From the sequence record NC_105587.1: a stretch of 64,000 nucleotides of DNA. One strand, written 5' to 3'. Under the pieces are notes generated by a model, which ran no database searches, was not told the DNA's origin, and saw only the letters and a program-made list of their open reading frames with translations. Made by a program: the position numbers and the translations under genes. The stretch is from Escherichia phage EC100. The stretch's first letter is position 1, and each line of letters starts with the position of its first letter. Positions 1 through 19,415 of the stretch are shown one piece after another.

Positions 1-19
1 ACTATTTCAACCTTAATTA

Positions 20-754
20 TTATGCGACTTTTAATTTCTCAATATATTGTTGCGGGCTGCAACTATATTCTGCGCGTTCTTCTTCGGTCATACTTTCCCA
101 ACATAATTGCAGGCGGTCGGCTAGGAACTGATAATCATTATCATCCTCAAGAGATTCATCAATAAAGGTTTCGCCTATCAATGTGACACCGATTGATAGA
201 ATATCGTTAATAGCTTGCGCGTCCAGCGTTTTAAACCCGTATGATGCCGCCGCCGATAGCACGCCTTTATGATCGTCGATCATCGTAAAATCAGCGTTTG
301 GATATAGCTGTTTAAATAGCTCAAAGTAATGGCTTTTATATATAGCGTCTTTACTGTGGTATATTTCGCTAACTTTATCAGCTTCAAAATATTTGTGTAG
401 TGTATCACGGGAAAATACGCGGATATTACTATTACCACGACCACGCAAGCCTTGTTTGCGCAGGAAGTAATAATCTGATTTGCTCATTAGTCGAGCGGTA
501 CAAATAATGTTTAAAGTATTTGCGTCATTCATGCACTGGCGCATATATTCAACCAATGGCAATAAAGTATCCTGCATTATTAAATGATGTTTACACGCTT
601 CATTTTTATACTTATTTAAATCTAAATTGCCCTCATTATCAAAGCAAGGCGCGACACGATGGAAAGAATTAACGATAGTGCCGTCTAAATCCCAAATCAT
701 AACGCGGGAAATATGCGGGAAGCTGCGGGAAATATTCATAATAGCTTTATTCAT
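20..754 (-). CDS. dmp: 5'-deoxyribonucleotidase Dmp (HAD-family phosphatase)
   Basis: 244 aa; HAD motif I 'IWDLDGTIV' near N-terminus; GGAG RBS; size/position as T5 pre-early dmp. Confidence 0.8.
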   Translation of the reverse strand: MNKAIMNISRSFPHISRVMIWDLDGTIVNSFHRVAPCFDNEGNLDLNKYKNEACKHHLIMQDTLLPLVEYMRQCMNDANTLNIICTARLMSKSDYYFLRKQGLRGRGNSNIRVFSRDTLHKYFEADKVSEIYHSKDAIYKSHYFELFKQLYPNADFTMIDDHKGVLSAAASYGFKTLDAQAINDILSIGVTLIGETFIDESLEDDNDYQFLADRLQLCWESMTEEERAEYSCSPQQYIEKLKVA

Positions 755-841
755 TTTGTTACGTTCTCCATTAAAGGGATTAGATTAATTCAATCTAGCC
801 CACTAATTATATTTTATTAGTGGGCTATGTTCAATTAACTA

Positions 842-1240
842 TTAGAACGCCAGACCAAAAGCAAGAGCATCAGCGATAAAACTAACATCCTCACCTGATA
901 CATGGGAACGAATACCCGCGCAGGTATATACTTTTGCGCTGATCAATTGATCATCGAGGCAAGCGAGGCAAGGCGCGACAACTGCAAAGGCTAGACCGGA
1001 TTTTACGGCGTCAATGATAATCGTTTCTTGTTTCACTGTGTCAACATAAACACCTGCGGCCTTAATGTAGCTACTTGCGCGGCCTTGCGTATAGGCAAAG
1101 GTAGTAACCTGCAAAGCGTCATTGAAATCTAACAGATCATCAATAACGTGCCCCGCCTCGACGTGGTAACGTTCACCATTAGAATAAACCAGAACAATGG
1201 AAGACTGAGCGCGATCGAATGGAATATTTTGCTTTTTCAT
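842..1240 (-). CDS. hypothetical protein
   Basis: 132-aa ORF, compact spacing with neighbours. Confidence 0.5.
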   Translation of the reverse strand: MKKQNIPFDRAQSSIVLVYSNGERYHVEAGHVIDDLLDFNDALQVTTFAYTQGRASSYIKAAGVYVDTVKQETIIIDAVKSGLAFAVVAPCLACLDDQLISAKVYTCAGIRSHVSGEDVSFIADALAFGLAF

Positions 1241-1278
1241 ATTTATAAAACCCCAATTAGTTTAATAATGGATTTAAT

Positions 1279-1536
1279 TTATTTGATAATAATCTGCATC
1301 TGGTACGGCGTTAATTCACCGTTTACGGGTAAATTATTATCACTTAGCCACTCATAAAAAGCGCCATCGTCATCAAAAGGAACAATATCATTATCACGGG
1401 AATCGACGGAAATAATACCATCAGTATTAGTTTTGGCGGCTAGGATAGGCCCGAAGCTGTAAACTTTATCGGATTCCATTTCATCCGGTGAAATGAATAC
1501 TTTTTCGTCCAATGTTTTGGGTAATGTAACTTTCAT
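1279..1536 (-). CDS. hypothetical protein
   Basis: 85-aa ORF directly downstream of A1. Confidence 0.45.
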   Translation of the reverse strand: MKVTLPKTLDEKVFISPDEMESDKVYSFGPILAAKTNTDGIISVDSRDNDIVPFDDDGAFYEWLSDNNLPVNGELTPYQMQIIIK

Positions 1537-1591
1537 TTTTTGTGACTCCTGTAATAGCGGCTATATTTCAAGCCGCTAGGGAATAATTTAA

Positions 1592-3256
1592 TTACGCAAA
1601 GAATTTACCGTTCTTAAAGTCAATCAAAGTGCGTTGACCGTTTGCATAGGTAATTAAATGCGTTTGCGTCCAGCTTGACGCGCCAACGTTGTAACCCATA
1701 TCCAGACTACCCGCTACGCCAGCGGTATATACACCGCCGTAAATGCTGGCGGTGTGAGTGTGCCCCGTGTTTAACTTGCCCAATTTCTTAAACTGTTTAG
1801 GATTGCCACGGCTGCCGTTAATGCCATTGTGACCGTGTACGCCACATTCAATGCCTGCAATCTTGAAAGATTGATCAGTGGTCAGGAAAATGGCGTTAAA
1901 TTCACAACCTGCAACCTTGCGCAACGCATAATCTAGCACGTTGAACGTTTCGTCGTGTTCACCGATTGCCGCATAGATTGCAGCATTCAGGCGGTGATAC
2001 AGTTCCGCGTTCGCGGGATCGTCTTTGATGTTAGCATTACGATCATCAAGCCAACGGGATAGCGCCAAATCGTGATTAGATTCAACAATGATTGTTTGAG
2101 AAAAATCACGTTCCATTGATTCCAGCACGCGCCCAGTATCGATTAGATCATCCAAAACTTTATCACGTCCGGCGGCGTATTGTTTCGCTAGGAATACACC
2201 CGATGCGCGATTGTGATGGTTGCGCGATGTAAAATCATGCACGTCATGGATAAACTGATATTTTGGTTTAAGAATATCAAGCAAACTATTATCGCCAGCC
2301 CATGACGCAACGGCACAATCATCATCTAATTTTTCCGCATGAATATCGCCATACTGCAAGCCTAAAACATGCCCCGATGTCTCATAACATCCGGCGGGAG
2401 TAGCGCACACATTCAGATCATAAAACACCCCGCTTTCGTCCATTGTTTCAAGCTGGCGAACAAAAAATTCCCCATCCTCGTCGAACTCAACAATCAGCGC
2501 ACCGAAGTTATGCAGCGCCTCGGCCTTTTGTCCGGCTTTCTGCTGAATGTAGTTTTTGAGCGTTGCCGTTCCGGTTGAATACATACGGCGCACTACTTCA
2601 CCTTTTAAAGCTGGCACGCTTTCGGCGGTAATTTTAGCGTGACCAATCGCAAGCCCCTCAATATTGAGCGCGGTTGCAGTTTCTGCGAATCCTGAAAGCG
2701 GATAATCTGCGGTGGGCAAAACATTAATTTCAGCCATGAAAGCAAAACGGCGGTTATTTAAAAACACGTTTTTGCTGCAAATATATTTATCAAAAGCGGA
2801 ATCGTATTTAATACCGTCCGCACCTTCTCCATTCTGGAAGCCGTTTTTATTATAAATATACTTAGAAACAAGCAAATCAGCACCGATATATTCAGCGAAT
2901 TTTTCCAGACTTGCTAAAAAGTTTTTATGCGGGAAAGTATTATTCTGAATCGACGTAATAATAAAGCGTTTACCCTGTTTTACTTCCCATTGCTCAACCG
3001 TACTAGAAACAATTCCCGCCGCTTCTGGGCGCTCATCGTTTTTAATGGCTTTTGCTACTTTTGCCGCTTTCGGTTTAGCTGGTTTATTTGCTTCCAGCCA
3101 GTCGCAGATAGCGGTTGAATGCTTCGTTGTATCGTAGACCGCTTTTGATATATCGTCGCAGACTTCCAGTTTAGTAGCGCGCAGACGTTTACCATAGAAA
3201 TTAAAGTCAGCGGCCATTTTCAGGATAACAGTTTGCTTTTCTGCGGAAATAATCAT
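1592..3256 (-). CDS. A1: pre-early protein A1 (metallophosphatase-fold nuclease)
   Basis: 554 aa; calcineurin-like motifs 'GDIHAEKLD', 'GVHGHNG', 'GHTHTASIYGG'; size/position as T5 A1. Confidence 0.8.
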   Translation of the reverse strand: MIISAEKQTVILKMAADFNFYGKRLRATKLEVCDDISKAVYDTTKHSTAICDWLEANKPAKPKAAKVAKAIKNDERPEAAGIVSSTVEQWEVKQGKRFIITSIQNNTFPHKNFLASLEKFAEYIGADLLVSKYIYNKNGFQNGEGADGIKYDSAFDKYICSKNVFLNNRRFAFMAEINVLPTADYPLSGFAETATALNIEGLAIGHAKITAESVPALKGEVVRRMYSTGTATLKNYIQQKAGQKAEALHNFGALIVEFDEDGEFFVRQLETMDESGVFYDLNVCATPAGCYETSGHVLGLQYGDIHAEKLDDDCAVASWAGDNSLLDILKPKYQFIHDVHDFTSRNHHNRASGVFLAKQYAAGRDKVLDDLIDTGRVLESMERDFSQTIIVESNHDLALSRWLDDRNANIKDDPANAELYHRLNAAIYAAIGEHDETFNVLDYALRKVAGCEFNAIFLTTDQSFKIAGIECGVHGHNGINGSRGNPKQFKKLGKLNTGHTHTASIYGGVYTAGVAGSLDMGYNVGASSWTQTHLITYANGQRTLIDFKNGKFFA

Positions 3257-3346
3257 AGTAATAAAACTCCATTAAAGGGATTAGATTAATAATGGCAATA
3301 TTGCCAAATATAACGCCTCGAATAATAGGCGTTATAATTTGCAACA

Positions 3347-3544
3347 TTAATTTAAAGGCATCAGGCTAGAACTAACACCACAAGCAACGGCGGCAATAAA
3401 ACAAATCAGACCTAAACGCTTCGCTAACTTAGATTTACGTTTAAAATAATACGAATCTAAATCATTTTGAAAATAAGCGAATAATAGGGAGGCCGCCATA
3501 ATAAATAAGCCTAGAATTAAAGATTCAGTAGGGAAGAAAACCAT
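3347..3544 (-). CDS. small membrane protein
   Basis: 65 aa, two hydrophobic helices. Confidence 0.4.
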   Translation of the reverse strand: MVFFPTESLILGLFIMAASLLFAYFQNDLDSYYFKRKSKLAKRLGLICFIAAVACGVSSSLMPLN

Positions 3545-3598
3545 TTTTAAAACTCCTGATTTAAGGGAAGAAAATAACTATCGCTAAACAGTTATATT

Positions 3599-3623
3599 AT
3601 TGCCCCCTCACTAGAAGGGGGCA
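3599..3623 (-). terminator. hairpin terminator downstream of A2
   Basis: 9-bp stem TTGCCCCCT/AGGGGGCAA. Confidence 0.45.
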
Positions 3624-3634
3624 AGGTATAACTA

Positions 3635-4042
3635 TTATTCACCTGCGGCTTGTTTTACTTCATCTGCAACGCCTAACAGTTGCGCCACCGCGTCCAGCGT
3701 TTCCAGTTTAGCACTTTCAAGGCTTGCCAGATCATCGGCGTCTTTGATAATGCCGGAATCAATAGCATGTTTAGCGATAACGCGTACATAATGCGCTTTA
3801 CGGATTGAACTACCGCCGCCAACTTTGCGCGGCTTATCGCTTTTTTGATATGCTTTCGCGCTGGTCAATTTTGACCGAACGGATACAGGAGAAGCCGCGC
3901 CTACTGCTTTTGCAATCTCTTTCAGGCCGTCGCTATTTGCAAAATCTAAACCGTTTTCATTAATTAACTGCTGATACATGGAAACAGCTTTCTGAGTGTT
4001 TTCTTCATTCCATGCGAATTTTGCGGTTTTAGCGTTAGTCAT
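3635..4042 (-). CDS. A2: pre-early protein A2 (putative DNA-binding)
   Basis: 135 aa, immediately upstream of A1 in same orientation; shares leader motif with dmp and A1. Confidence 0.6.
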   Translation of the reverse strand: MTNAKTAKFAWNEENTQKAVSMYQQLINENGLDFANSDGLKEIAKAVGAASPVSVRSKLTSAKAYQKSDKPRKVGGGSSIRKAHYVRVIAKHAIDSGIIKDADDLASLESAKLETLDAVAQLLGVADEVKQAAGE

Positions 4043-4139
4043 GATAAAACTCCTATTAGTTTAATTTAAGGGATTAGATTAACTTAATGTTAATCGTTAT
4101 ATCCCCCTGAAATAAGAGGGATATAAAGTTAGCACTAAA

Positions 4140-4391
4140 TTATAAAACAGCTTCCCATTTTTCGTTGCGTTGAACAACCTTTACAACATCGCCGGATTTA
4201 ACGCGAACGCTAAAAACGGGTTTGCTGTTGTTACTGCGTTCCGTTTCAGCGTATACCGCGTCGATTGTATCAAACGGCATAAGCGCCGCGCCTTTAATAC
4301 GTTCGGCTTTTCCGGTTAATTCATCCGTTTTAGTAACGAAAGGAATAAAAACGGATTGACCAATTTTAGGCGCGGTAATAACGTTTTGCAT
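4140..4391 (-). CDS. hypothetical protein
   Basis: 83-aa ORF with AGGAG RBS. Confidence 0.5.
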   Translation of the reverse strand: MQNVITAPKIGQSVFIPFVTKTDELTGKAERIKGAALMPFDTIDAVYAETERSNNSKPVFSVRVKSGDVVKVVQRNEKWEAVL

Positions 4392-4617
4392 AATATAAAC
4401 TCCTAGTTATTTGGGGATTGTTCCGCATTACCTGCTAGAAAGTAGCAGGTAATAAGTAACAATCCGCTCGCCAATATAATCAATTTAAAGAACTCCACGT
4501 AGGCCGCTATATCCCGTTAGGGGGCGGGATGCTTTATGGTAAGCACCGACCGTCAAATTTTATCAAGTTATCGCTCTTTTCGAACTGGGTACATCTTAAA
4601 ACCTATCGGCTAGGCTG

Positions 4618-4821
4618 TCAAACAATTTTTTGAGATTTTTTATGATTTTCCCTCAGGTCAATCATAATGTTTCTCCAGATCATTTCTAAACCTTGCTGGC
4701 GACCTTGCAAATATTGCTTGAATCGCCATTTTACAGAATTTTGCGCTACTGTCAACAAGTTTTTTGTTTTGCTATCTAGTGCCTTGCTAGGCTTGCCAGT
4801 GATCAAAAGCGTTTGTTTCAT
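4618..4821 (-). CDS. hypothetical protein
   Basis: 67-aa ORF, weak RBS. Confidence 0.3.
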   Translation of the reverse strand: MKQTLLITGKPSKALDSKTKNLLTVAQNSVKWRFKQYLQGRQQGLEMIWRNIMIDLRENHKKSQKIV

Positions 4822-5332
4822 ATCGTCGATTCCTTATAATGAATAAGTTTACCGCCGATAGGCTTTAAGATATACCCAATTTTTAAAGAGCGTGGCGGTA
4901 AACTTCCCGCCGTGTAGTTCGTCATTGCCGCCCTACGAGATAAATAATAACAAACAACGAAAAAGGCGCAACCTTATTTTTGTAAAGAAATGTAAAGACA
5001 AACGCCACCGGACACCATGCGGCGATCTGGGCGCAGCGCATTAAAATTAAAAGAAACGGGCGCGCGATTACCACAAAATAAAGCAGATATGCAAGTAATT
5101 TTTTCATTTATATTTGCTTTGCCCTACTTGACAAAATCCAAAAAGCTCATGGCGGCGATAAACGGCTTATCCCCTTATGATGGGATGGCTAAAAACTTTA
5201 TTGCGTTCTGGAGCGTTTTAGGCCGCTTATTTTCGACTTAACAAATCATTAACATAAGCAAAATTGAAAAATAGTTTGAAAAGATCTTGACTTTTAAAAA
5301 TCAAGATCAAATGACTTATTTTATAAAATAAA

Positions 5333-5851
5333 TTAATTGACAATTCCATATTCAGCTTTTTTAATTTCAAGCCATAATAATAACTCTTGTAAATCATAAC
5401 CAGACTTACTAACACGCTTGTTAGTAATAGGATTCTTAATTTGAGCAGTCAAATAGTCACGCCCGTAATTATCACGGGGGCGAACTTTATTAACGTAAAT
5501 GTTTTTAGGGATACCATTAGCACGCTTACAGTTTTCATACTCACTAGGAGTGCGATTATAATTATTCTGCGAACTATCAACCGCGCGAAGATTCCAGATG
5601 TTATTATTACGAGTGTTACGATCAATATGGTCAATCATTAGCTCGCTATCTATACCGCCATTCATTATACAAAAGATAATTCTATGTACTTTGAATTGTC
5701 CCATGTCTAATAGTTCAACTTGCCAATAATTACCATTTAAACCACCTGCGATGGCGTGATCTTCTCGCCAACGTAAAAATGATAACGCTGTTTCATCATA
5801 ATAAAAGTAACTATTAAAAAGGTCATAGTCTATATCTTTATATTTAGGCAT
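5333..5851 (-). CDS. HNH homing endonuclease
   Basis: 172 aa; HNH motif 'IDHIDRNTRNNNIWNLRAV'. Confidence 0.7.
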   Translation of the reverse strand: MPKYKDIDYDLFNSYFYYDETALSFLRWREDHAIAGGLNGNYWQVELLDMGQFKVHRIIFCIMNGGIDSELMIDHIDRNTRNNNIWNLRAVDSSQNNYNRTPSEYENCKRANGIPKNIYVNKVRPRDNYGRDYLTAQIKNPITNKRVSKSGYDLQELLLWLEIKKAEYGIVN

Positions 5852-6040
5852 CTAATTGTTTCCTTATGTTATTACTTTAATCTCTATTATATTATATCAA
5901 AATGATTAGCAGACTAGCTAATGAGTTTTTCAGGATTAGTTAGCAGACTCATAATCACGGTAAAATCCTATTAGCCAACTAACTATATTTTACGATATAA
6001 TAACTTTATAAATTAGTTAGTGAGAAAAACTATCATTTAA

Positions 6041-6122
6041 GTTATCCACAGACTTAATCACAGCACAAAATAATTTGACACGATAGGCGGCGATATAAAG
6101 ACTTTTACACAGACTTATCCAC
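6041..6122 (+). promoter_or_regulatory. two DnaA-box-like sites (TTATCCACA)
   Basis: exact 9-mer at 6041-6049 and 6114-6122, both within ...CAGACTTATCCACAG... context. Confidence 0.5.
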
Positions 6123-6417
6123 AGCTTATTCTACTGTATAAATATACAAGGTAAAAAGGTAGTGTTAACAACTGCAATCAATTTTAAGCGGCCTAAAACG
6201 CTTTCTAACGAGCTAAATGCGGTGGGGTAATATTAAAGTAAAGCCTTCACCCGTCGCCCTGGTGGCTTCGCCGTGTTTTGCTCTTTATTGCACCGCTGCG
6301 CGGTTAGCATAAAATTAGGCGCTAGGCAAGGAGTAAAAAACATTTTCTTTTTTCTTGCCCCCAGCGAACAAATATCTATATCATTCACTCACCGATTAAC
6401 GAGGGAGGCCGAACAAA

Positions 6418-7427
6418 TGAGGCTGTATAAACCTGATAATGCCACCGTATTAAAGGGTGCATTGCGCAACCTGCTGGACGGTAGCAAGTCAACCAGCATT
6501 AAACATTTTATTAACAAGATTGAAACTACTCATCAAAACTTTTTTGATGACTATGATGCCTATGATATGGATAGTTTTTTGCCGTTGTATAAACAAGGGG
6601 CAACGCTTGTTTTATATAACCGTGATTGCCATATCTTTACAGGCAGGGGAGCAGGGCCGGATACCGATTTTATTGTTGCGCAGGGTAATAATATTGTTGC
6701 GTATCATAGCAATTCAGGCCGTCAATCATTTAATATAAATGTTTTTGAGCTTATTGGGCTTGATCTGATAAACGGACTTTCTAGCATTGAGGGATTTTTA
6801 GATGTTATCTGGAAGCATTTACCAGCTGGATGGTATAAGCCGGATAACGACGGATCTCAATATACTGGTATAATGGCTTTTGATGGCGATGGTAATTTTT
6901 TGTTACCACGGGAGTTATACCCGTATATTTATGATGGGGATATAGAAAGCGCTGGTTTTTCTTTCTGGAAAGATGAAGATCAGATTATTGACAGCGTAGA
7001 AAACCATGCTGTAAATTCTAACACTCAAAACGTTAATACTCAAACTACTGAAAACAAAGGAAAAAATACCATGACCAAGATTGCTAACATCGTTGCCGCC
7101 AATAAATCCGCTGTTGTAAACGCTGCAAAACTGGAAGCGGGTAAAATTGCATTAACTCAAATCACGAAAGTAGCGGCTAAAAAAGCACCGTTTATGATTA
7201 AAGGTTATATTGATACGCCTATCGGTCGAGTAGTAATTGCTAACCTGCTGAGTGTGGCGGTTGACCAGTACGCACCGACTAACCAAAAGGCGAAAGCGGT
7301 AGCAGGCGCGGCTATGGAAGCGGCAATGCTGGAAATGGTGCAAAGTTTTAACATCGCTGAAATGATTGATGAAATGGTGAAAGGTATTGATATTTCTACT
7401 TTTACCACTAGCACCGAAAGCGAGTAA
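6418..7427 (+). CDS. hypothetical protein
   Basis: ORF trimmed to ATG 6418 preceded by GAGGGAGG RBS; ~336 aa. Confidence 0.55.
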
Positions 7428-7436
7428 TAATATTTG

Positions 7437-7460
7437 GCGGGGATTGTTTCCCCGCTTTAC
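7437..7460 (+). terminator. rho-independent terminator
   Basis: GCGGGGA-loop-TCCCCGC then T-rich. Confidence 0.5.
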
Positions 7461-7492
7461 TATTCCCTTGTTAATTAATAGGAGGCTAATAA

Positions 7493-7987
7493 ATGGCTGA
7501 GGAAAAATACGGGTTTTCGCTAGGGGAGGAGAGCAAGGCAAAACATGATATGATCATTTTGGTCGATTGTCATACTGGCTATTGCGGTGAAGGGAATACT
7601 GAGGAATATTTTGTTCCTGCTGGTACGGATCTCGACGCTTTCGCCCATGAAATGGCTGTTGATAATGCTTCTCGTTTTGGTAGCGATGGTTACGAAGACG
7701 AAGAAACGGGCGATTGGTATGAGAATGATAATGTATATGCAAGCCTTTATCATTATCAATTAAGTAAATCCGGCACATATGTAAACGGCGGTGATCCTAT
7801 TAATTCCGTCATGAAATTAATTATTAAATATGGCGGCGTCGAGATAGTCGATAACAAAGCGGTAATATATGCAAACCGATTAAAACAGCTTGTTTATATC
7901 CCTGATAGTACCCGATGGGAGGAATATGCTGTTTTGCATGATGAATTAAAACGATGTTTCAATATTGAAACCTTACAAGTAGTTTAA
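7493..7987 (+). CDS. hypothetical protein
   Basis: 164 aa; AGGAGG RBS; followed by terminator. Confidence 0.55.
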   Translation: MAEEKYGFSLGEESKAKHDMIILVDCHTGYCGEGNTEEYFVPAGTDLDAFAHEMAVDNASRFGSDGYEDEETGDWYENDNVYASLYHYQLSKSGTYVNGGDPINSVMKLIIKYGGVEIVDNKAVIYANRLKQLVYIPDSTRWEEYAVLHDELKRCFNIETLQVV

Positions 7988-8000
7988 TGTAAAGTTTTGT

Positions 8001-8028
8001 AAAGGCCGCCTCTTATGGCGGCCTTTTT
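8001..8028 (+). terminator. rho-independent terminator
   Basis: AGGCCGCC-TCTTA-GGCGGCCT then TTTTTTGTT. Confidence 0.65.
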
Positions 8029-8094
8029 TGTTATAATGCCCTTACACCGTTTGAGGACGGTTGAAAATTTTCCCAAAAATTTTGGAGGCTTATA

Positions 8095-8325
8095 ATGGTT
8101 GCTTATTCTTCTTCTGACGCTCTTTTCACTGGAAAAGGTTGGGTATCAAATCGCTGGATCATTCAAGAAATGGTGCAAGAATACGGCATTGCTAAAACTT
8201 ACACTACCATTCAGGCGCTTTATGATAATGATCAAATCGATCAGCAAACGGCGGGCTTTTTACTGGATACCCTGAAGGCGGAACACTGTACTAAAAAACA
8301 AGCCGCAAAAATTATTTTAATGTAA
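8095..8325 (+). CDS. hypothetical protein
   Basis: 76 aa, GGAGG RBS. Confidence 0.5.
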   Translation: MVAYSSSDALFTGKGWVSNRWIIQEMVQEYGIAKTYTTIQALYDNDQIDQQTAGFLLDTLKAEHCTKKQAAKIILM

Positions 8326-8371
8326 CTAATAACGGGGCGTTACTTTCGCCCCACTAACTAGGGGAATAAAA

Positions 8372-8518
8372 ATGGTTATTTTTCGAGCTATTCTAGCAGG
8401 TATCTTGGGCGCTATTTTATCCTTTTTTGCTATAGCTTTCGACGTTCACGCGGTTATTATTGGTGCGGGTATCGCTGTTTTTTCTTATTTGCTGGGCTGC
8501 ATGAATAAAGGAGAATAA
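8372..8518 (+). CDS. tiny membrane protein
   Basis: 48-aa hydrophobic ORF (below ORF-track cutoff), GGGGAA RBS. Confidence 0.35.
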   Translation: MVIFRAILAGILGAILSFFAIAFDVHAVIIGAGIAVFSYLLGCMNKGE

Positions 8519-8520
8519 AA

Positions 8521-8733
8521 ATGATTCGTAACGTTTCCCTTGCTCGTTCAAAGGGTTTTAAGCTGGTGGACGTTAACACGTTCGAGCGGGAAGATTGTAA
8601 AATCGAATATGTAGCACGGAATAAAAACGCCTTTCGTGTTACAGAAAAGAGATTCGATAAGCGCGGCAACGTGATAGCTGAAACGGTTAAATATTTTGCC
8701 ACCTTTTACGCGGCCTTTCGTGGGGTGCTATGA
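8521..8733 (+). CDS. hypothetical protein
   Basis: 70 aa, start abuts previous stop. Confidence 0.45.
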   Translation: MIRNVSLARSKGFKLVDVNTFEREDCKIEYVARNKNAFRVTEKRFDKRGNVIAETVKYFATFYAAFRGVL

Positions 8734-8855
8734 AAAGCGTTGTTATTATTATCCTTGCAATGGTTGGCGGTTTTACCGCCACCTTATTTAAGAATGATCC
8801 CCTTTTACTGGGGATTTTTATGCTTTTATCTGGTTACCTGATTGGGAGGTTATAA
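8730..8855 (+). CDS. tiny membrane protein
   Basis: 41-aa hydrophobic ORF, ATG overlaps upstream stop (ATGA). Confidence 0.35.
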   Translation: MKSVVIIILAMVGGFTATLFKNDPLLLGIFMLLSGYLIGRL

Positions 8856-8856
8856 A

Positions 8857-9201
8857 ATGGTAATTTATGAGGGCAATCGCTTTGTTGCTAATTGCCGCCC
8901 GGCATTATTAGCAAACTACTTAAATCAGCTTTCACCTGAATATAAAGGCGTCATAAATATTTACGAGGGAAAGGCGCATTATAAGATCAACGCGGTCGTT
9001 GCCCGTGAACTAGCATTTCAATTTTTGACCTTCGCATCTTGTGATATTCAGGTCATGGGTGAGGCGTTAATTGCAGAAAATGAAGACGATTTTATTAATA
9101 TTTTTCGCAAGGTGTGCACCGAGCGCCTGATCATGAAAGGCGCGTATATTCAGTCAACTGCGGAAAGTATTGAAACAGCATTTAGGAAGGTGGCGCAATG
9201 A
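8857..9201 (+). CDS. hypothetical protein
   Basis: ORF trimmed to ATG 8857 (GGGAGG RBS). Confidence 0.5.
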   Translation: MVIYEGNRFVANCRPALLANYLNQLSPEYKGVINIYEGKAHYKINAVVARELAFQFLTFASCDIQVMGEALIAENEDDFINIFRKVCTERLIMKGAYIQSTAESIETAFRKVAQ

Positions 9202-9356
9202 AAAAAATTTTGATAGCTGGTATGTTTCCTTTGTTGCCTTATGTAATTTGCTGGGCTTTATATGCTCATGGTGCTAGTGTTCCCGGTGTGGCTTCATTTG
9301 GTGTATCGGCTGGTTTTCTAACCGGACTATTGGCAAGCGTATATTTACGCAAATAA
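9198..9356 (+). CDS. tiny membrane protein
   Basis: 52-aa hydrophobic ORF, ATG overlaps upstream stop. Confidence 0.35.
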   Translation: MKKILIAGMFPLLPYVICWALYAHGASVPGVASFGVSAGFLTGLLASVYLRK

Positions 9357-9374
9357 TTAATAACGGGAGTTATT

Positions 9375-9569
9375 ATGAGCAATAAAATTATTGTGACCAA
9401 AACTAGTACAATGGTTGATGTTTTTTACGTGCCCGATACGCCGGAAAACCGACAAGCGGTCGAGCGTGGCGAGTATGATAAAGTGATTTATGATCACGAT
9501 GGTTATTACCAGTATTTGGTCGATTCCTACGGGGAGGAGGAGAAGATCACGCATCAATTACCGGACTGA
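9375..9569 (+). CDS. hypothetical protein
   Basis: 64 aa, GGGAG RBS, followed by terminator. Confidence 0.5.
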   Translation: MSNKIIVTKTSTMVDVFYVPDTPENRQAVERGEYDKVIYDHDGYYQYLVDSYGEEEKITHQLPD

Positions 9570-9575
9570 CAACAA

Positions 9576-9598
9576 GCGGGGAGCAGATCCCCGTTTTT
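9576..9598 (+). terminator. rho-independent terminator ending + strand operon
   Basis: CGGGGA-GCAGA-TCCCCG then TTTTTC. Confidence 0.6.
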
Positions 9599-9750
9599 CA
9601 GGCCTGCAATCAGATACCCCTTTGTTTTAGTATCCCCGCCAAAATTAAACGCGTTAGAATGCGATTCAGGACGTTTTAAGCCTATATTAGAATTATTCAC
9701 TGCATAGGAATACTGTATATTTATACAGTAGAATAACCTGGGGATAAGTC

Positions 9751-9820
9751 TGTGGATAACGCTTCAAAATGGCTAGGATTCTGTCAAGTCAAATCGTGCT
9801 GTTGATAAGTCTGTGGATAA
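9751..9820 (-). promoter_or_regulatory. two DnaA-box-like sites (TTATCCACA on reverse strand)
   Basis: TGTGGATAA at 9751-9759 and 9812-9820, each within an 18-nt repeat GATAAGTCTGTGGATAAC. Confidence 0.5.
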
Positions 9821-9840
9821 CTTAAATAGCAGTGTTTCTC

Positions 9841-10020
9841 ACTTCCATTTTTAAATGAGAATCATTATCATTTGCATTTCACTATCTAACCGATAATCAT
9901 TCCACTTTTTAAATGAGAATCATTTCACTTCTTGAATAATTCTCATCCCCTTTCTTAAATGCAAATCATTATCATTCGCATTTCACTTTTTAAATGAGAT
10001 TGATTCTCATTATCATTCGT
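9841..10020. repeat. degenerate tandem repeats
   Basis: three copies of TTTTTAAATGAGAATCATT and two of ATCATTATCATT(T/C)GCATTTCAC. Confidence 0.6.
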
Positions 10021-10030
10021 ATTTAGGCGA

Positions 10031-10048
10031 GCAGGGCAATTGCCCTGC
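10031..10048. repeat. perfect 18-bp palindrome
   Basis: GCAGGGCAATTGCCCTGC. Confidence 0.7.
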
Positions 10049-10053
10049 GCTTT

Positions 10054-10655
10054 TGTGCAAATCCGACAATTGCTCCAAGGGTTACGTGCTAGCGTGTATG
10101 TGCGAATCCGACAATTTTTGGTAGTGTGCAAATCCGACCCTAAAAACTTTTGTGATGTGCAAATCCGACAATGAATTTTCCTAAAAACTCCAGCAATCAC
10201 GAACTGCGTTCGAATCCTGTGGAATTAGCTAGAGTATGTGCAAATCCGACATGTGTTGAGATGTGCGAATCCGACAAGATTTTTGTGACTTCGATTGGAG
10301 GGTGTGTGATTGTATAGGTTTGAGGAGAAGATGAGAGAGCGAGAAAAATTTGAGGGGCTAGAAGGATGTGGGCGCAGGATTGGTGCGGAGCACCTGATTT
10401 GCGGGGATTTTGGGGAAGATGTAAGATAATTTGGGAAGATTTGAGATAGGTGCAGAAAAAGTGAAATTTTATTAGCAAAATGGAGCAAAATAGCTTGACA
10501 AGTGAAAATTCTTGTGGCTCTAAAAACTCAGGCAATCATGGGCCTTCGGCCCGAAATAATGCTGCCATTTTCAGAAGATTATGTGTCCATGAAAACTTAG
10601 GCGATTGTGCAAATCCGACCATAAATTTCTAGAAACACAATGTGCAAATCCGACA
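10054..10655 (+). repeat. array of eight direct 15-nt iterons (consensus ATGTGCAAATCCGACA)
   Basis: copies at ~10054, 10098, 10126, 10155, 10236, 10261, 10605, 10640, all same orientation. Confidence 0.75.
10300..10500 (+). repeat. purine-rich (GA) tract
   Basis: ~200 nt of almost exclusively G/A/T with GAGA/GGGG runs on + strand. Confidence 0.5.
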
Positions 10656-10679
10656 GTAATTTCTGGAAATGTGTTTTCA

Positions 10680-10830
10680 AAAAAATGTCTCCTAGAAATA
10701 ACCGCCCTCCCAATAACCGCCCTGTATTAAACCGCCTAGTATATGTTCCTAGAAACTTAGGAGAACCGCCCACTAGGAGTGTGGTATCTCGTGAGAACTC
10801 TGGAGTTTCTAGGAAAGTGTTGTGCCATCC
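10680..10830. repeat. short repeats (AACCGCCC x4, (T)CTAGAAA x5)
   Basis: clustered short direct repeats adjacent to the iteron array. Confidence 0.45.
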
Positions 10831-11192
10831 TAGCAGAAGAGCGGCAATAGGTGTATCATCTTGAATGTAAATTATGTGGTCAAAAGTTTTACTTTTATTT
10901 TAAATATAAGATCCCCCAGGGTTCTCATATAGAGCTTTGCCCCCGCCAGAAGGTCTCGTGATGTTTCTAGCAATTTATATTAAATTACTTATTAACTTGT
11001 CCTGTCGCTCCGTATCCTCCGCTACAAGTTAGTAATTTTAAATTACTGAACCACCACACCTTCTGTGTGGCAACTCTAAATGGTTAATTCTATTAACTCA
11101 TAGAGTTATGATAACATACATTTAGCTATCTGTCAACGAGAGTTTGTATTTGAGTCTCGGTACAGGTATTGTGCACCGAGACTTGCAGGATC

Positions 11193-12077
11193 TTACAGTA
11201 ACTCTTGGTATGCTTTTTGATACGCCTCAGTGTCAGTAGGTGTATCTTTTGCTAGCGCAATTAGTTCATCTGTTATCTGAATATTCGTATTATAACGTGT
11301 GTGGAACTCGTTAGGAATTTCTAGGTATCTATTGATGAATGCTGCAGCAAGCGGTGTGACTAAACCAATCTCTAGAGATAGCTTAACTTGTTTTTCGTAG
11401 ATTAAATATTGAGAATCAGATGGGATTGGTGGGGTTACATCAATTTTCTCTGGTTCTTTTTCTGGAAGCAATGGATTATTATATAATGCTTCATCTGGAA
11501 GCACAGATTTACGCTCTTTAAATATATAAGTTTCTAGATCCGATGCTTTAGATCCTGAGTATACAGCGAAGATGCTAGCTTTACCTTGTGATGCCCTAAC
11601 TGGTAGATAACTAGTAGGATAACTTCTTAATGCATCATGGAATGGACTTCCTGAGTACTTGTATGTATCTCCATAGAGATCATCAATATTCATTCGTTCA
11701 TTTTCAAAAATGTGAAATGACTTAAATGGTGGAATGGTGAAGTATTCCATCTGTAACCCATAAACTAAGAAACGATGTGCATATGCACTGATTTTTAAGA
11801 CTGTGAATGCTTTTTCACCTTCTTTATGGGCGTTGCCTTTTGAAGTAACTTGGTAACGTTTACAAAACATCTCTACTAGACGTTTCTCATTAATACTAAG
11901 GGTGGAGTACAGTCGTCCACTTAATCCTATAAGTGCATCGAACATAAATGCTAGTTTATCTTTTTCTTCCGGGGTTAGTTCAGGAAATGGAAGTACTTTA
12001 GCATTAGGAACACTATTATTCTCCTTAGGTTTTGTTTTACCAGCGTTTTGTCTTAGTTTATCTTTAAAGTTATACAT
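11193..12077 (-). CDS. hypothetical protein
   Basis: 294-aa ORF, first gene right of the repeat region. Confidence 0.55.
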   Translation of the reverse strand: MYNFKDKLRQNAGKTKPKENNSVPNAKVLPFPELTPEEKDKLAFMFDALIGLSGRLYSTLSINEKRLVEMFCKRYQVTSKGNAHKEGEKAFTVLKISAYAHRFLVYGLQMEYFTIPPFKSFHIFENERMNIDDLYGDTYKYSGSPFHDALRSYPTSYLPVRASQGKASIFAVYSGSKASDLETYIFKERKSVLPDEALYNNPLLPEKEPEKIDVTPPIPSDSQYLIYEKQVKLSLEIGLVTPLAAAFINRYLEIPNEFHTRYNTNIQITDELIALAKDTPTDTEAYQKAYQELL

Positions 12078-19179: not shown

Positions 19180-19415
19180 ATAACAGTTAAAATAGTTGTG
19201 CCATAATCATTAGATAGTTGGAAGGTATAACCCTCTTTATAGAGGGCTTTTATAGCTTCATAACTAATTTCATCGCGATTAAACTGTACAAAAGAACCTC
19301 CAATCTCCACAGAAGAAACTATTCTCTTTTTAACATACTTATATGGTTTCTTTCTGCTCTTAAGAAGCGTAGCTCTATTTATCCTGGCTAAACGTTTTGC
19401 TTGTTCCGCTAACAT
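19170..19415 (-). CDS. hypothetical protein
   Basis: 81-aa ORF. Confidence 0.45.
   Translation of the reverse strand: MLAEQAKRLARINRATLLKSRKKPYKYVKKRIVSSVEIGGSFVQFNRDEISYEAIKALYKEGYTFQLSNDYGTTILTVIWE

What the first reader, a model, noticed from the sequence alone, without database searches (positions are those of the whole stretch)
9600..11190. 1.6-kb non-coding region with layered repeat architecture (injection-stop/terminal-repeat boundary-like)
Between the + strand operon terminator and the first early gene there is no convincing ORF. Instead there are DnaA boxes, ~60-bp degenerate tandem repeats (9841-10020), a perfect 18-bp palindrome GCAGGGCAATTGCCCTGC (10031-10048), a 200-nt purine-rich tract (10300-10500) and clusters of short repeats (10680-10830). 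As I recall, T5 has a repeat-rich injection-stop region near the end of its left terminal repeat, and this fits that description. The exact repeat boundary and the proteins bound here cannot be read from this window alone.
Basis: partly seen in the sequence, partly recalled or inferred. Interest (0 to 1): 0.5.

Follow-up and report, generated by a model that had tools for sequence, protein, structure and literature searches.

The report
T5-type injection-stop and terminal-repeat boundary
This non-coding stretch is the already-described "injection stop signal"/terminal-repeat boundary of a T5-like phage, but it also holds conserved, near-consensus binding sites for the host proteins LexA and Fur next to the known DnaA boxes, which gives testable candidates for what halts T5 DNA entry.

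Summary
The window is Escherichia phage EC105/EC104, a Tequintavirus. Region 9600-11190 is about 92% identical to T5 9298-10933. [quoted passage not shown] Davison described it as 'Repeat Region 3'. No ORF in it behaves like a gene. By homology, the repeat boundary is at window 10520 and the nick at 10050/10051.

Two points are absent from every iss description I could read. The '~60-bp repeats' (T5 'DRE') are a cluster of Fur boxes scoring up to 28.6 bits, the best Fur matches in all 64 kb. The palindrome at 9711-9730 matches the LexA box consensus at 19 of 20 positions.

The order LexA box, DnaA boxes, Fur boxes, GCGC nick site, DRD array holds across 28 T5-like region versions. It also holds in Klebsiella and Pantoea relatives, and in Pectobacterium except for the LexA box.

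As a region this is already known. What stops DNA entry is still unproven.

The parts
9577..9598 (+). Intrinsic terminator closing the rightward pre-early operon (hairpin CGGGGAGCAGATCCCCG followed by TTTTT)
   Evidence: Sequence. Hairpin detected. T5 annotates a terminator at the homologous 9275-9296.
9711..9730 (.). LexA (SOS) box-like palindrome TACTGTATATTTATACAGTA, 19 of 20 matches to the consensus taCTGTatatatatACAGta
   Evidence: It is the only match in the 64 kb at up to 3 mismatches, against 0.00 expected. Consensus taken from PMC5101192. A copy with at most 2 mismatches is present in 25 of 28 T5-like region versions, and with 2-4 mismatches in Pantoea, Proteus, Aeromonas and Vibrio relatives. 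The CTGT/ACAG columns are about 100% conserved.
9714..9843 (.). Right arm (T5 IRD'-spacer-IRC') of a 130-nt inverted repeat. Its partner is at 6019-6148, on the other side of the rightward pre-early operon.
   Evidence: 78% complementary, 3565 nt apart. Described for T5 in 10.1101/866236.
9739..9759 (-). DnaA box pair 1: TTATCCCCA (variant) and TTATCCACA (consensus), 3 bp apart
9800..9820 (-). DnaA box pair 2: TTATCAACA (variant) and TTATCCACA (consensus), 3 bp apart
   Evidence: The 9812-9820 box is 98% conserved.
9836..10024 (.). DRE repeats (2 x 67 nt plus sub-repeats), read here as a Fur-box cluster. Sites: 9851-9875 (28.6 bits), 9955-9979 (17.8), 9961-9985 (15.1), 9990-10014 (19.9), 9996-10020 (15.8); weaker site 9909-9933 (11.0).
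   Evidence: Repeats. The Fur matrix was built from 22 published sites (PMC3055841), which themselves score 18.6-30.2 bits. The top five hits in the whole 64 kb all lie here. The best score in 40 Markov simulations was 17.1. The best score from 2000 column-permuted matrices was 16.7, and other AT-rich windows score at most 11.6. Overlapping sites sit 6 bp apart, as in E. coli Fur clusters (PMC2189734). The estimated T5 shear point (FST end) maps to about window 10000 (plus the mapping; my arithmetic).
10031..10048 (.). Perfect 18-bp palindrome GCAGGGCAATTGCCCTGC. On the + strand, together with the following GCTTTTG, it has the form of an intrinsic terminator.
   Evidence: 94% conserved.
10047..10051 (-). 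GCGC nick site: homolog of the T5 '7.9%' major single-chain interruption, between 10050 and 10051 on the - strand
   Evidence: T5 feature 9748/9749 (complement) maps here. GCGC is 100% conserved in 28 region versions. CCTGCGC also precedes the first DRD in the Proteus and Vibrio relatives.
10055..10275 (+). Array of six DRD repeats GTGCRAATCCGAC, starting at 10055, 10100, 10126, 10157, 10238 and 10263. All are on the same strand and irregularly spaced.
   Evidence: The same motif in the same orientation follows the nick site in T5, Seafire, Sugarland, DU_PP_V, AAS21 and Vibrio phage Cody. DRD1-3 are 97-99% conserved, against 77% for the sequence between DRDs.
10287..10500 (+). C-depleted, purine-rich tract (67% purine, 16 C in 214 nt). 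It includes a 20-nt tandem TTGGGGAAGATGTAAGATAA / TTTGGGAAGATTTGAGATAG.
10520..10521 (.). Right boundary of the left terminal repeat, i.e. the site corresponding to the physical right genome end: ...TTGTGGCTC | TAAAAACTCAGG
   Evidence: The last 40 nt of the HASG4 genome match window 10481-10520 exactly. The T5 right end maps to the same base. Homology stops at this position in the right-end loci of six or more further genomes that carry both repeats. This is inferred by homology and not measured for EC105.
10541..10553 (.). GC hairpin GGGCC-TTC-GGCCC just outside the repeat. 10525-10574 is 97-99% conserved.
10607..10654 (+). Two further DRD copies (10607, 10642) in unique DNA, beyond the repeat boundary
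10692..10816 (.). Short-repeat cluster: AATAACCGCCCT x2 plus two more ACCGCC, and CTAGAAACT direct and inverted copies (10746-10757 / 10804-10815). This is the least conserved part and carries a ~45-bp indel relative to T5.
10866..11190 (-). Near-invariant 325-nt block downstream of the first early gene. It holds a strong sigma-70-type promoter on the - strand (TTGACA-17-TATCAT with TG, 11136 to 11108) pointing into the non-coding region. It also holds a ~120-nt nested hairpin (10947-11065) and a hairpin at 11153-11183.
   Evidence: RNA fold z = -4.6; 92-100% identity in 22 loci. No Rfam family and no tRNA. Function unknown.

Best explanation
Shown: the region is the EC105 counterpart of the non-coding control region at the right end of the T5 left terminal repeat. 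[quoted passage not shown] It is cis-acting DNA that binds proteins, not a gene.

Inferred: I read it as three modules.

Module 1 (9711-10020) lies at the end of the DNA that enters in the first step. It is a dense pad of high-affinity sites for host proteins already present in the cell: one LexA box, four DnaA boxes and four to five overlapping Fur boxes. A weaker inverted copy sits 3.6 kb upstream at 6019-6148. Host factors fit the role because the stop happens without phage protein synthesis. I propose that these proteins load as the DNA emerges and build a looped or anchored nucleoprotein complex, with DnaA supplying the membrane anchor that Davison proposed, and that this complex holds the DNA.

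Module 2 runs from the GCGC nick site through the six same-strand DRD repeats and the C-poor tract to 10520. It stays outside the cell, or in the channel, during the pause. The DRD repeats most likely bind a conserved phage protein. The candidates are the pre-early A1/A2 pair, which are needed to restart transfer, or a packaging protein that sets the repeat end.

Module 3 (10521-11190) is the border of the early region and carries its own promoter and hairpin block.
For: Identity of the region:
- 100% match to EC105 and about 92% to T5.
- T5 annotations of iss, nick and LTR end map into the region.
- The literature description matches (10.1101/866236). The 2026 papers still describe the iss only as repeats, palindromes and DnaA boxes.
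- Non-coding.
- Boundary at 10520.

Host-factor sites:
- Fur matrix hits of 15-28.6 bits occur only here in the 64 kb, far above the Markov, permuted-matrix and AT-rich controls. Overlapping sites are 6 bp apart.
- The site TTAAATGAGAATCATTATCATTTGC matches a published Fur site at 22 of 25 positions.
- The LexA box matches the consensus at 19 of 20 and is unique in the window.
- DnaA boxes are paired.

Conservation:
- 28 distinct region versions keep a LexA box (at most 2 mismatches in 25 of 28). They keep 2-6 Fur sites of at least 15 bits (median 4) and 3-6 DRD copies.
- The motif order persists where overall DNA similarity is low or nearly absent: Sugarland, DU_PP_V (Fur, DnaA, DRD) and AAS21.
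- The boxes are better conserved than the sequence between them.
- The strongest Fur site sits in DRE1 here and in DRE2 in T5, which is turnover with retention.

The estimated shear point falls in the last Fur cluster (plus the mapping).
Against: - No binding or genetic data exist for any of these sites. Consensus-predicted Fur sites can fail to bind (PMC2189734).
- The Fur matrix comes from A. baumannii sites seeded from an E. coli matrix, not from E. coli footprints.
- The Vibrio phage Cody has the LexA-like box, DnaA boxes, CCTGCGC and DRD array but no Fur box; it carries three CACTAATATAGGGATC repeats instead. The Proteus phage has only weak Fur-like sites (13.5 bits). So Fur boxes are not universal in the family.
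- It is physically unclear how proteins bound to DNA that has already entered could halt DNA pushed by capsid pressure.
- The position of the first-step end (7.9%) is only an estimate, and it coincides with the nick.
- From memory: T5 mutants lacking nicks still transfer in two steps, so the nick itself is probably not the stop.
- I could not read Davison 2015, Wang 2005 or Heusterspreute 1987. The Fur/LexA reading may already have been made there.
Confidence: 0.6

Rival explanations
1. Replication-origin-like element. DnaA boxes, an AT-rich repeat block and same-strand direct repeats (DRD acting as iterons) resemble iteron-type plasmid origins and oriC. On this reading the region fires replication rather than stopping injection.
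For: Four DnaA boxes lie next to a 29%-GC repeat block, followed by six same-strand 13-mers. Davison also notes the oriC resemblance.
Against: - The AT-rich block matches the Fur matrix specifically (28.6 bits, against at most 16.7 for permuted matrices), not merely as an AT-rich unwinding element.
- DRD spacing is irregular: 45, 26, 31, 81, 25 nt.
- No initiator gene is adjacent.
- According to the literature summarised in 10.1101/866236, T5 origins were mapped near the genome centre, and the replication genes are not expressed while only the first-step DNA is in the cell.
Confidence: 0.08
2. Packaging / end-formation signal. The DRD array, the C-poor tract and the CTAAAAACT motif that straddle 10520 are recognition and cleavage signals used by terminase to generate the right end of the terminal repeat from concatemers. 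This could hold alongside the injection-stop role of the left module.
For: - The repeat end falls at the same homologous base in eight or more genomes.
- It coincides with the first base of a CTARAAACT copy. That motif occurs 11 times in the window against 2.5 expected, five of them within 10140-10812.
- DRD copies lie on both sides of the boundary, six to the left and two to the right.
- The DRD motif is conserved out to a Vibrio phage whose A1 protein is only about 31% identical.
Against: No DRD and no CCTGCGC lie near the other cut site, the junction between the unique right end and the repeat start. A symmetric terminase signal is therefore not present. The array starts 465 bp from the boundary, immediately after the nick. 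There are no experimental data.
Confidence: 0.25
3. Transcriptional control region. The LexA, DnaA and Fur boxes are ordinary operators that repress or insulate promoters here, giving small RNAs or read-through control of the pre-early operon. They have no direct role in DNA entry.
For: - About 83% of E. coli Fur clusters overlap sigma-70 promoters (PMC2189734).
- Promoter-like sites overlap the boxes: + strand 9913-9940 and 9989-10016, - strand 9719 to 9692 across the LexA box.
- The palindrome at 10031-10048 followed by a T-run has terminator form.
- The inverted copy of the module lies just upstream of the rightward pre-early operon.
Against: - The promoter-like matches are weak (9 of 12) and no more numerous than in shuffled sequence (13 found against 10.1 +/- 2.8).
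- A transcript starting near 10023 would terminate within about 30 nt.
- No Rfam family matches.
- There is no obvious target gene. Host DNA is destroyed within minutes of infection (background), which limits the value of host-state regulation.
Confidence: 0.15
4. The region encodes small proteins, for example the annotated 39-aa CDS at 10310-10429 or the 112-aa - strand ORF at 10197-10535.
For: EC105 annotates one CDS here, and Seafire, AAS21 and others annotate several.
Against: Variable columns are evenly spread over codon positions. Relatives carry 1-2-nt indels and internal stops in every candidate frame. The long - strand ORFs are what a C-poor + strand would produce by composition alone.
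Confidence: 0.02

Closest known systems
Bacteriophage T5 injection stop signal / 'Repeat Region 3' at the right end of the left terminal repeat (Heusterspreute 1987; Wang 2005; Davison 2015 and 10.1101/866236)
   Same: It is orthologous DNA at about 92% identity, in the same position between the rightward pre-early operon and the first early gene. It has the same IRD'-spacer-IRC' element with paired DnaA boxes and an inverted partner 3.6 kb upstream. It also has the same DRE repeats, palindrome, nick site, DRD array and repeat end.
   Different: - EC105 has 8 DRD copies against T5's 9-10.
- It lacks a ~117-bp segment after the last pre-early gene and a ~45-bp segment near 10780.
- Both right-hand boxes of the DnaA pairs are consensus here, whereas one is a variant in T5.
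- The strongest Fur-type site is in DRE1 rather than DRE2.
E. coli Fur-box clusters at iron-regulated promoters (19-bp GATAATGATAATCATTATC; overlapping dimer sites 6 bp apart)
   Same: The sequences match a published Fur matrix at training-set level (28.6 bits against 18.6-30.2 for the training sites). There are several overlapping sites 6 bp apart, spread over about 170 bp.
   Different: The cluster is not at the promoter of an iron gene. It lies in a phage terminal repeat with no downstream gene. Binding is untested. Fur boxes are absent from the Vibrio relative.
LexA (SOS) boxes, CTGT-N8-ACAG
   Same: 19 of 20 matches to the consensus palindrome, conserved across genera.
   Different: There is no SOS gene or clear promoter under it. 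It sits beside DnaA boxes inside a long inverted repeat. Binding is untested.
Concatemer-junction repeat arrays of phages with direct terminal repeats, such as T7 (from memory)
   Same: Arrays of short direct repeats flank a sequence-specific terminal-repeat boundary.
   Different: The T5-type repeat is about 10 kb rather than 160 bp. The DRD array is found only at the right boundary. No homology was tested.

Membership tests
T5-type injection stop signal / Repeat Region 3 | Sequence homology to the T5 iss region and the same genomic position (after the rightward pre-early operon, before the first early gene) | tested here: met
   About 92% identity to T5 9298-10933. The T5 iss feature 9140-10149 maps to window 9561-10450.
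T5-type injection stop signal / Repeat Region 3 | IRD'-spacer-IRC' element with paired DnaA boxes and an inverted partner (IRC-spacer-IRD) in the repeat region upstream | tested here: met
   130-nt inverted repeat 6019-6148 / 9714-9843. Five DnaA consensus boxes lie in the two arms.
T5-type injection stop signal / Repeat Region 3 | Two ~66-bp DRE repeats followed by a series of DRD repeats | tested here: met
   67-nt copies at 9836 and 9940. Eight GTGCRAATCCGAC copies.
T5-type injection stop signal / Repeat Region 3 | Function: DNA entry pauses here until A1/A2 are made | not testable with these tools
   This needs infection experiments. Even for T5, the site is assigned by position only.
Long direct terminal repeat boundary (T5 type) | The sequence to the left is duplicated at the right genome end, and the duplication stops at a fixed base | tested here: inconclusive
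   The EC105 record holds one repeat copy only. By homology, the right ends of T5, HASG4 and six or more other two-copy genomes stop at window 10520. Seafire and Sugarland records place the end at the nick site instead.
Fur-box cluster | Match to the Fur recognition matrix / 19-bp consensus above chance | tested here: met
   28.6, 19.9, 17.8, 15.8 and 15.1 bits. Simulated maximum 17.1, permuted-matrix maximum 16.7.
Fur-box cluster | Overlapping sites spaced 3 or 6 bp apart | tested here: met
   Site starts at 9955/9961 and 9990/9996. Criterion from PMC2189734.
Fur-box cluster | Metal-dependent Fur binding and Fur-dependent effect | not testable with these tools
   Needs a gel shift or footprint and a fur mutant host.
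LexA (SOS) box | CTGT-N8-ACAG palindrome close to the 20-bp consensus | tested here: met
   19 of 20, unique in the 64 kb, against 0.00 expected.
LexA (SOS) box | Overlaps a promoter that it represses; LexA binding | tested here: inconclusive
   Only a weak - strand promoter-like site (9 of 12) overlaps it. Binding was not tested.
Iteron-type replication origin | DnaA boxes plus an AT-rich unwinding element plus regularly spaced iterons, with a cognate initiator gene nearby | tested here: not met
   DnaA boxes and an AT-rich block are present. However, DRD spacing is irregular (45/26/31/81/25 nt), the AT-rich block is specifically Fur-like, and there is no adjacent initiator gene.
Known RNA families / tRNA | Match to an Rfam covariance model or a tRNA | tested here: not met
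   No Rfam match at E <= 1 in 9000-12000. ARAGORN finds nothing.

The most novel reading that the evidence does not exclude
The T5 injection stop signal is a composite landing pad for three resident host DNA-binding proteins: LexA, DnaA and Fur. The DRE repeats are Fur boxes and palindrome 9711-9730 is a LexA box. On this reading, these proteins bind the emerging DNA, perhaps looping it to the inverted copy 3.6 kb upstream and anchoring it through membrane-bound DnaA. That binding arrests DNA entry until A1/A2 act. The same-strand DRD array just beyond the nick is the restart or end-formation site bound by a conserved phage protein.

A wider corollary follows. Unrelated virulent coliphages (Stephanstirmvirinae) also carry Fur-box arrays, so phage use of Fur sites may be a general, unrecognised theme.
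Probability: 0.25. Interest if true: 0.8.

Novelty: already known. Interest (0 to 1): 0.4.

Why it matters
How T5 stops DNA entry after 8% of the genome has been an open question since the 1960s. Papers from 2026 still say the mechanism is poorly understood, and they describe the signal only as repeats, palindromes and DnaA boxes.

The region itself is not new. The new element is the assignment of two more of its conserved repeat elements to specific, abundant host proteins, Fur and LexA. That turns 'a complicated repeat region' into a short list of experiments with standard mutants and purified proteins.

There are also two practical points for genome annotation.
- CDSs called inside this region in several records are probably spurious.
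- Terminal-repeat lengths predicted from read starts in some T5-like records end exactly at the conserved nick site, and may be about 470 bp too short.

Tried and rejected
- Protein coding: rejected for all eight candidate ORFs.
- Known RNA family or tRNA: none found.
- BLAST of the DRE block against E. coli genomes, to look for a captured host promoter: only chance-level hits.
- Pfam on A1, A2, the flanking early gene and the last pre-early gene, looking for a DNA-binding domain that might read the DRD: no hits.
- DRD as a symmetric terminase signal: no DRD near the left cut site.
- DnaA-box enrichment over the whole window: not significant (10 against 7.8 expected). Only the clustering in the two inverted-repeat arms is notable.
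- Promoter scan: the total number of promoter-like sites is not above shuffled expectation. Only the 11136 to 11108 site is strong.
- Covariation analysis of the 10947-11065 hairpin: not possible, because the block is 92-100% identical wherever it occurs.
- Literature checks for prior mention of Fur or LexA at the T5 iss: none found in the searchable library. Davison 2015 (PMC4743489) and the 1987 and 2005 primary papers were not available.
- E. coli Fur site sequences were not retrievable from PMC2189734, so the matrix rests on the A. baumannii set.
Full report
IDENTITY OF THE WINDOW. Region 9600-11190 is 100% identical, at the same coordinates, to Escherichia phages EC105 and EC104 (Demerecviridae, Tequintavirus). 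It has matches in 447 phage records, nearly all T5-like phages of Escherichia and Salmonella. A pairwise alignment with T5 (NC_005859) gives about 92% identity.

The T5 record annotates the left terminal repeat (LTR) as 1-10219 and an 'injection stop signal (iss)' at 9140-10149. It also annotates a terminator at 9275-9296 and a 'major DNA single-chain interruption' at 9748/9749 on the complementary strand. Mapped through the alignment, these are window 10520 (LTR end), 9561-10450 (iss), 9577-9598 (terminator) and 10050/10051 (nick).

CHECK OF THE OBSERVATION.
- ORFs in the region are short. In a 13-genome alignment, none has more variation at third codon positions, and all are broken by 1-2-nt indels and stop codons in relatives. 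This includes the CDS annotated in EC105 at 10310-10429.
- The DnaA boxes are two pairs (9739-9759 and 9800-9820), each pair 3 bp apart.
- The '~60-bp tandem repeats' are two 67-nt copies at 78% identity, 104 nt apart, with 23-35-nt sub-repeats.
- The 18-bp palindrome at 10031-10048 is perfect, and it is one of two perfect palindromes that long in the 64 kb.
- The tract at 10300-10500 is 68% purine, the most strand-biased 200 nt in the window, and really C-depleted.
- The short repeats at 10680-10830 are real.

Eight copies of GTGCRAATCCGAC, all on the + strand, lie at 10055-10275 (x6) and 10607-10654 (x2). They occur nowhere else in the 64 kb, against 0.09 expected.

WHAT IS ALREADY KNOWN. 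Davison's preprint (10.1101/866236) describes this stretch of T5 as 'Repeat Region 3'. He lists:
- the 131-bp IRD'-spacer-IRC' element with DnaA boxes, and its inverted partner in Repeat Region 2;
- two 66-bp DRE repeats;
- nine DRD repeats;
- many palindromes.

He notes that the calculated end of the first-step-transfer DNA (7.9%, about 9618 in AY587007 coordinates) falls in DRE2. He proposes that membrane-bound DnaA holds the DNA.

The window has the partner arm at 6019-6148, 78% complementary to 9714-9843. Two 2026 papers still describe the signal only as a non-coding region of repeats, palindromes and DnaA boxes, and call the mechanism poorly understood.

THE TERMINAL-REPEAT BOUNDARY. The EC105 record carries one repeat copy, so the boundary cannot be read directly. 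The last 40 nt of the HASG4 genome, a record with both copies, match window 10481-10520 exactly, and the T5 right end maps to the same base. In six or more further genomes with both copies, the right-end locus stops at the position homologous to 10520. The boundary is ...TTGTGGCTC|TAAAAACTCAGG and coincides with the first base of a CTARAAACT copy. That motif is enriched in the window (11 copies against 2.5 expected) and clustered here.

The window's position 1 is not the physical left end. The T5 left-terminus homolog lies 91 bp before the end of the EC105 record.

NEW READING OF TWO SUB-ELEMENTS: FUR BOXES. The DRE repeats contain AAATGAGAATCATTATCATT. This resembles the Fur box GATAATGATAATCATTATC (consensus cited from PMC4506495).

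I built a weight matrix from 22 published Fur sites (PMC3055841 Table 1) and scanned the whole window.
- The top five hits in the 64 kb all lie in 9851-10020: 28.6, 19.9, 17.8, 15.8 and 15.1 bits.
- The training sites themselves score 18.6-30.2 bits.
- Forty Markov simulations of the window reached 17.1 bits at most.
- Two thousand column-permuted matrices reached at most 16.7 bits on this stretch.
- The 38 other windows of 30% GC or less reached at most 11.6 bits.

The match is therefore specific and not an effect of AT-richness. Overlapping sites start 6 bp apart (9955/9961 and 9990/9996), which is the spacing typical of footprinted E. coli Fur clusters (PMC2189734). The strongest site matches a published Fur site at 22 of 25 positions.

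NEW READING OF TWO SUB-ELEMENTS: LEXA BOX. The palindrome TACTGTATATTTATACAGTA at 9711-9730 matches the LexA box consensus taCTGTatatatatACAGta (PMC5101192) at 19 of 20 positions. It is the only such match in the window, against 0.00 expected.

Davison's preprint contains no mention of Fur, iron, LexA or SOS. Four literature searches found nothing linking them to T5 injection. I could not read Davison 2015, Wang 2005 or Heusterspreute 1987, so prior notice cannot be excluded.

CONSERVATION. In 28 distinct versions of the region from T5-like genomes:
- 25 have a LexA box with at most 2 mismatches at a fixed distance from the nick site;
- all have 2-6 Fur sites of at least 15 bits (median 4; best site 16.6-28.6 bits);
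- all have 3-6 DRD copies in the next 520 nt.

The order LexA box, DnaA boxes, Fur boxes, CCTGCGC, DRD array holds in several genera.
- It holds in Epseptimavirus (Seafire), Sugarlandvirus (Klebsiella) and the Pantoea phage AAS21.
- Hongcheonvirus (Pectobacterium DU_PP_V) keeps DnaA, Fur and DRD. BLAST aligns only 50 nt there, and no strict LexA box was found.
- An Aeromonas relative has DnaA boxes plus a 20-23-bit Fur site at both inverted-repeat positions, but no DRD.

There are exceptions. A Vibrio relative keeps the LexA-like box, DnaA boxes, CCTGCGC and a DRD array, but has three CACTAATATAGGGATC repeats where the Fur boxes would be. A Proteus relative has only weak Fur-like repeats of 13.5 bits. 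Fur boxes are therefore widespread in the family but not universal.

Column conservation looks like a footprint.

| Element | Conservation |
|---|---|
| LexA CTGT/ACAG | about 100% |
| GCGC | 100% |
| DRD1-3 | 97-99% |
| Fur boxes | 84-88% |
| Sequence between Fur boxes | 63-71% |
| Sequence between DRD copies | 77% |

The strongest Fur site is in DRE1 here and in DRE2 in T5. That is what turnover under selection for binding would produce.

HOW IT MOST LIKELY WORKS. Shown: this is the T5-type iss and repeat-boundary region. It is non-coding, and it consists of conserved short motifs in a fixed order.

Inferred: the left module (9711-10020) is a pad for host proteins that exist before infection. 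This fits the known fact that the pause needs no phage protein synthesis (background). The estimated first-step end maps to about window 10000, inside the last Fur cluster. This comes from my conversion of Davison's 9618 using the 80-bp offset between the two T5 records and the mapping, and the estimate itself is coarse.

The DRD array begins 4 nt after the nick and runs towards the repeat end. The candidates are A1/A2 (restart of transfer) or a packaging factor that forms the end.

The main weaknesses of the model are these.
- It is unclear how proteins bound to DNA already inside the cell could arrest DNA that is being pushed in.
- There is no binding evidence at all.
- Fur boxes are absent from the Vibrio relative.

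RIVALS.
- An iteron-type origin is unlikely. DRD spacing is irregular, there is no initiator gene nearby, the AT-rich block is specifically Fur-like, and the literature places T5 origins near the genome centre.
- A packaging role for the right-hand module is plausible and not exclusive. It is not symmetric, however: no DRD lies at the other cut site.
- A purely transcriptional role for the boxes cannot be excluded. Weak promoter-like sites overlap them, and the palindrome plus T-run has terminator form.
- Coding is rejected.

THE LAST 325 bp. Block 10866-11190 lies outside the repeat. It is 92-100% identical in all 22 loci that carry the T5.018-like early gene and 96-100% conserved per column. 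It contains a near-consensus sigma-70 promoter on the - strand (TTGACA-17-TATCAT with TG, 11136 to 11108), pointing away from the gene into the non-coding DNA. It also contains a ~120-nt nested hairpin (RNA fold z = -4.6). No Rfam family matches. Its function is unknown. It is not part of the iss.

VERDICT. The region is already known as the T5 iss / Repeat Region 3 and LTR boundary. This analysis adds:
- the boundary and nick coordinates for this genome;
- the assignment of the DRE repeats to Fur boxes, and of one palindrome to a LexA box, both conserved across genera.

This last point is computational only. It converts an old open question into specific experiments.

Noticed in passing
window 10047-10051; L061 (Seafire MK050846) 2927; L059 (Sugarland NC_042093) 3270: The terminal-repeat ends that PhageTerm predicted for Seafire (...CCCTGCG|CTTTTGTGCAAATCCGAC) and Sugarland (...CCTGCGC|TTATGTGCGAATCCGAC) fall exactly on the conserved GCGC nick site. 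That site is homologous to the T5 major nick. They do not fall on the T5/HASG4-type repeat end about 470 bp further right. The nick was probably read as a genome terminus, so repeat lengths in some T5-like records may be too short.
   Followed up: partly
L057 (ESCO37 OM386659) 1505-1590; L058 (inny MN850601) 1490-1590: Unrelated ~148-kb coliphages (Stephanstirmvirinae) carry 3-4 Fur-matrix sites of 18-29 bits in an intergenic region, next to iteron-like AAAATGAAAAGTTCAA / TATTTAAAGTTTTT repeats. BLAST found them through similarity to the DRE repeats.
   Followed up: partly
window 10866-11190: A 325-nt block, 92-100% identical wherever the T5.018-like gene occurs. It has a strong - strand sigma-70 promoter (11136 to 11108) firing into non-coding DNA and a ~120-nt nested hairpin (10947-11065). 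It may be an unannotated small RNA or a DNA-level element.
   Followed up: partly
window 1; L066 (ON185582) about 108641/108642: Position 1 of the EC105 record, and of the window, is not the physical left end. The homolog of the T5 left terminus lies 91 bp before the end of the record, so the repeat would be about 10.6 kb long.
   Followed up: partly
window 124-148: A Fur-box-like palindrome, GGAACTGATAATCATTATCATCCTC (14.7 bits; 16 of 19 to the consensus on both strands), lies close to the left genome end. It is the best Fur match outside the DRE cluster.
   Followed up: no
window 770-794, 3271-3295, 4064-4088: A 25-nt repeat (ATTAAAGGGATTAGATTAA...) sits 15-22 nt upstream of the start codons of three - strand pre-early genes: the dmp-like gene 20..754, A1 1592..3256 and A2 3635..4042. 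It may be a shared leader or regulatory element.
   Followed up: no
window 10310-10429; also L061, L062: CDSs annotated inside this non-coding region show no coding signature in the alignment. They include URN70781 in EC105, several in Seafire, and many 25-70-aa CDSs in AAS21. They are probably spurious.
   Followed up: partly
window 6016-6150: The inverted partner arm carries three DnaA consensus boxes (6042, 6103, 6115). It also has a degenerate LexA-like box (TACTGTATAAATATACAAGG) and a weak Fur-like site (11.6 bits). It is therefore a mirrored, weaker copy of the same host-factor module, on the other side of the rightward pre-early operon.
   Followed up: partly
L065 (Vibrio phage Cody MT460515), flipped coordinates 19330-19380: Where the enterobacterial phages have Fur boxes, this Vibrio relative has three CACTAATATAGGGATC repeats that form a 25-bp palindrome. 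What binds them is unknown.
   Followed up: no
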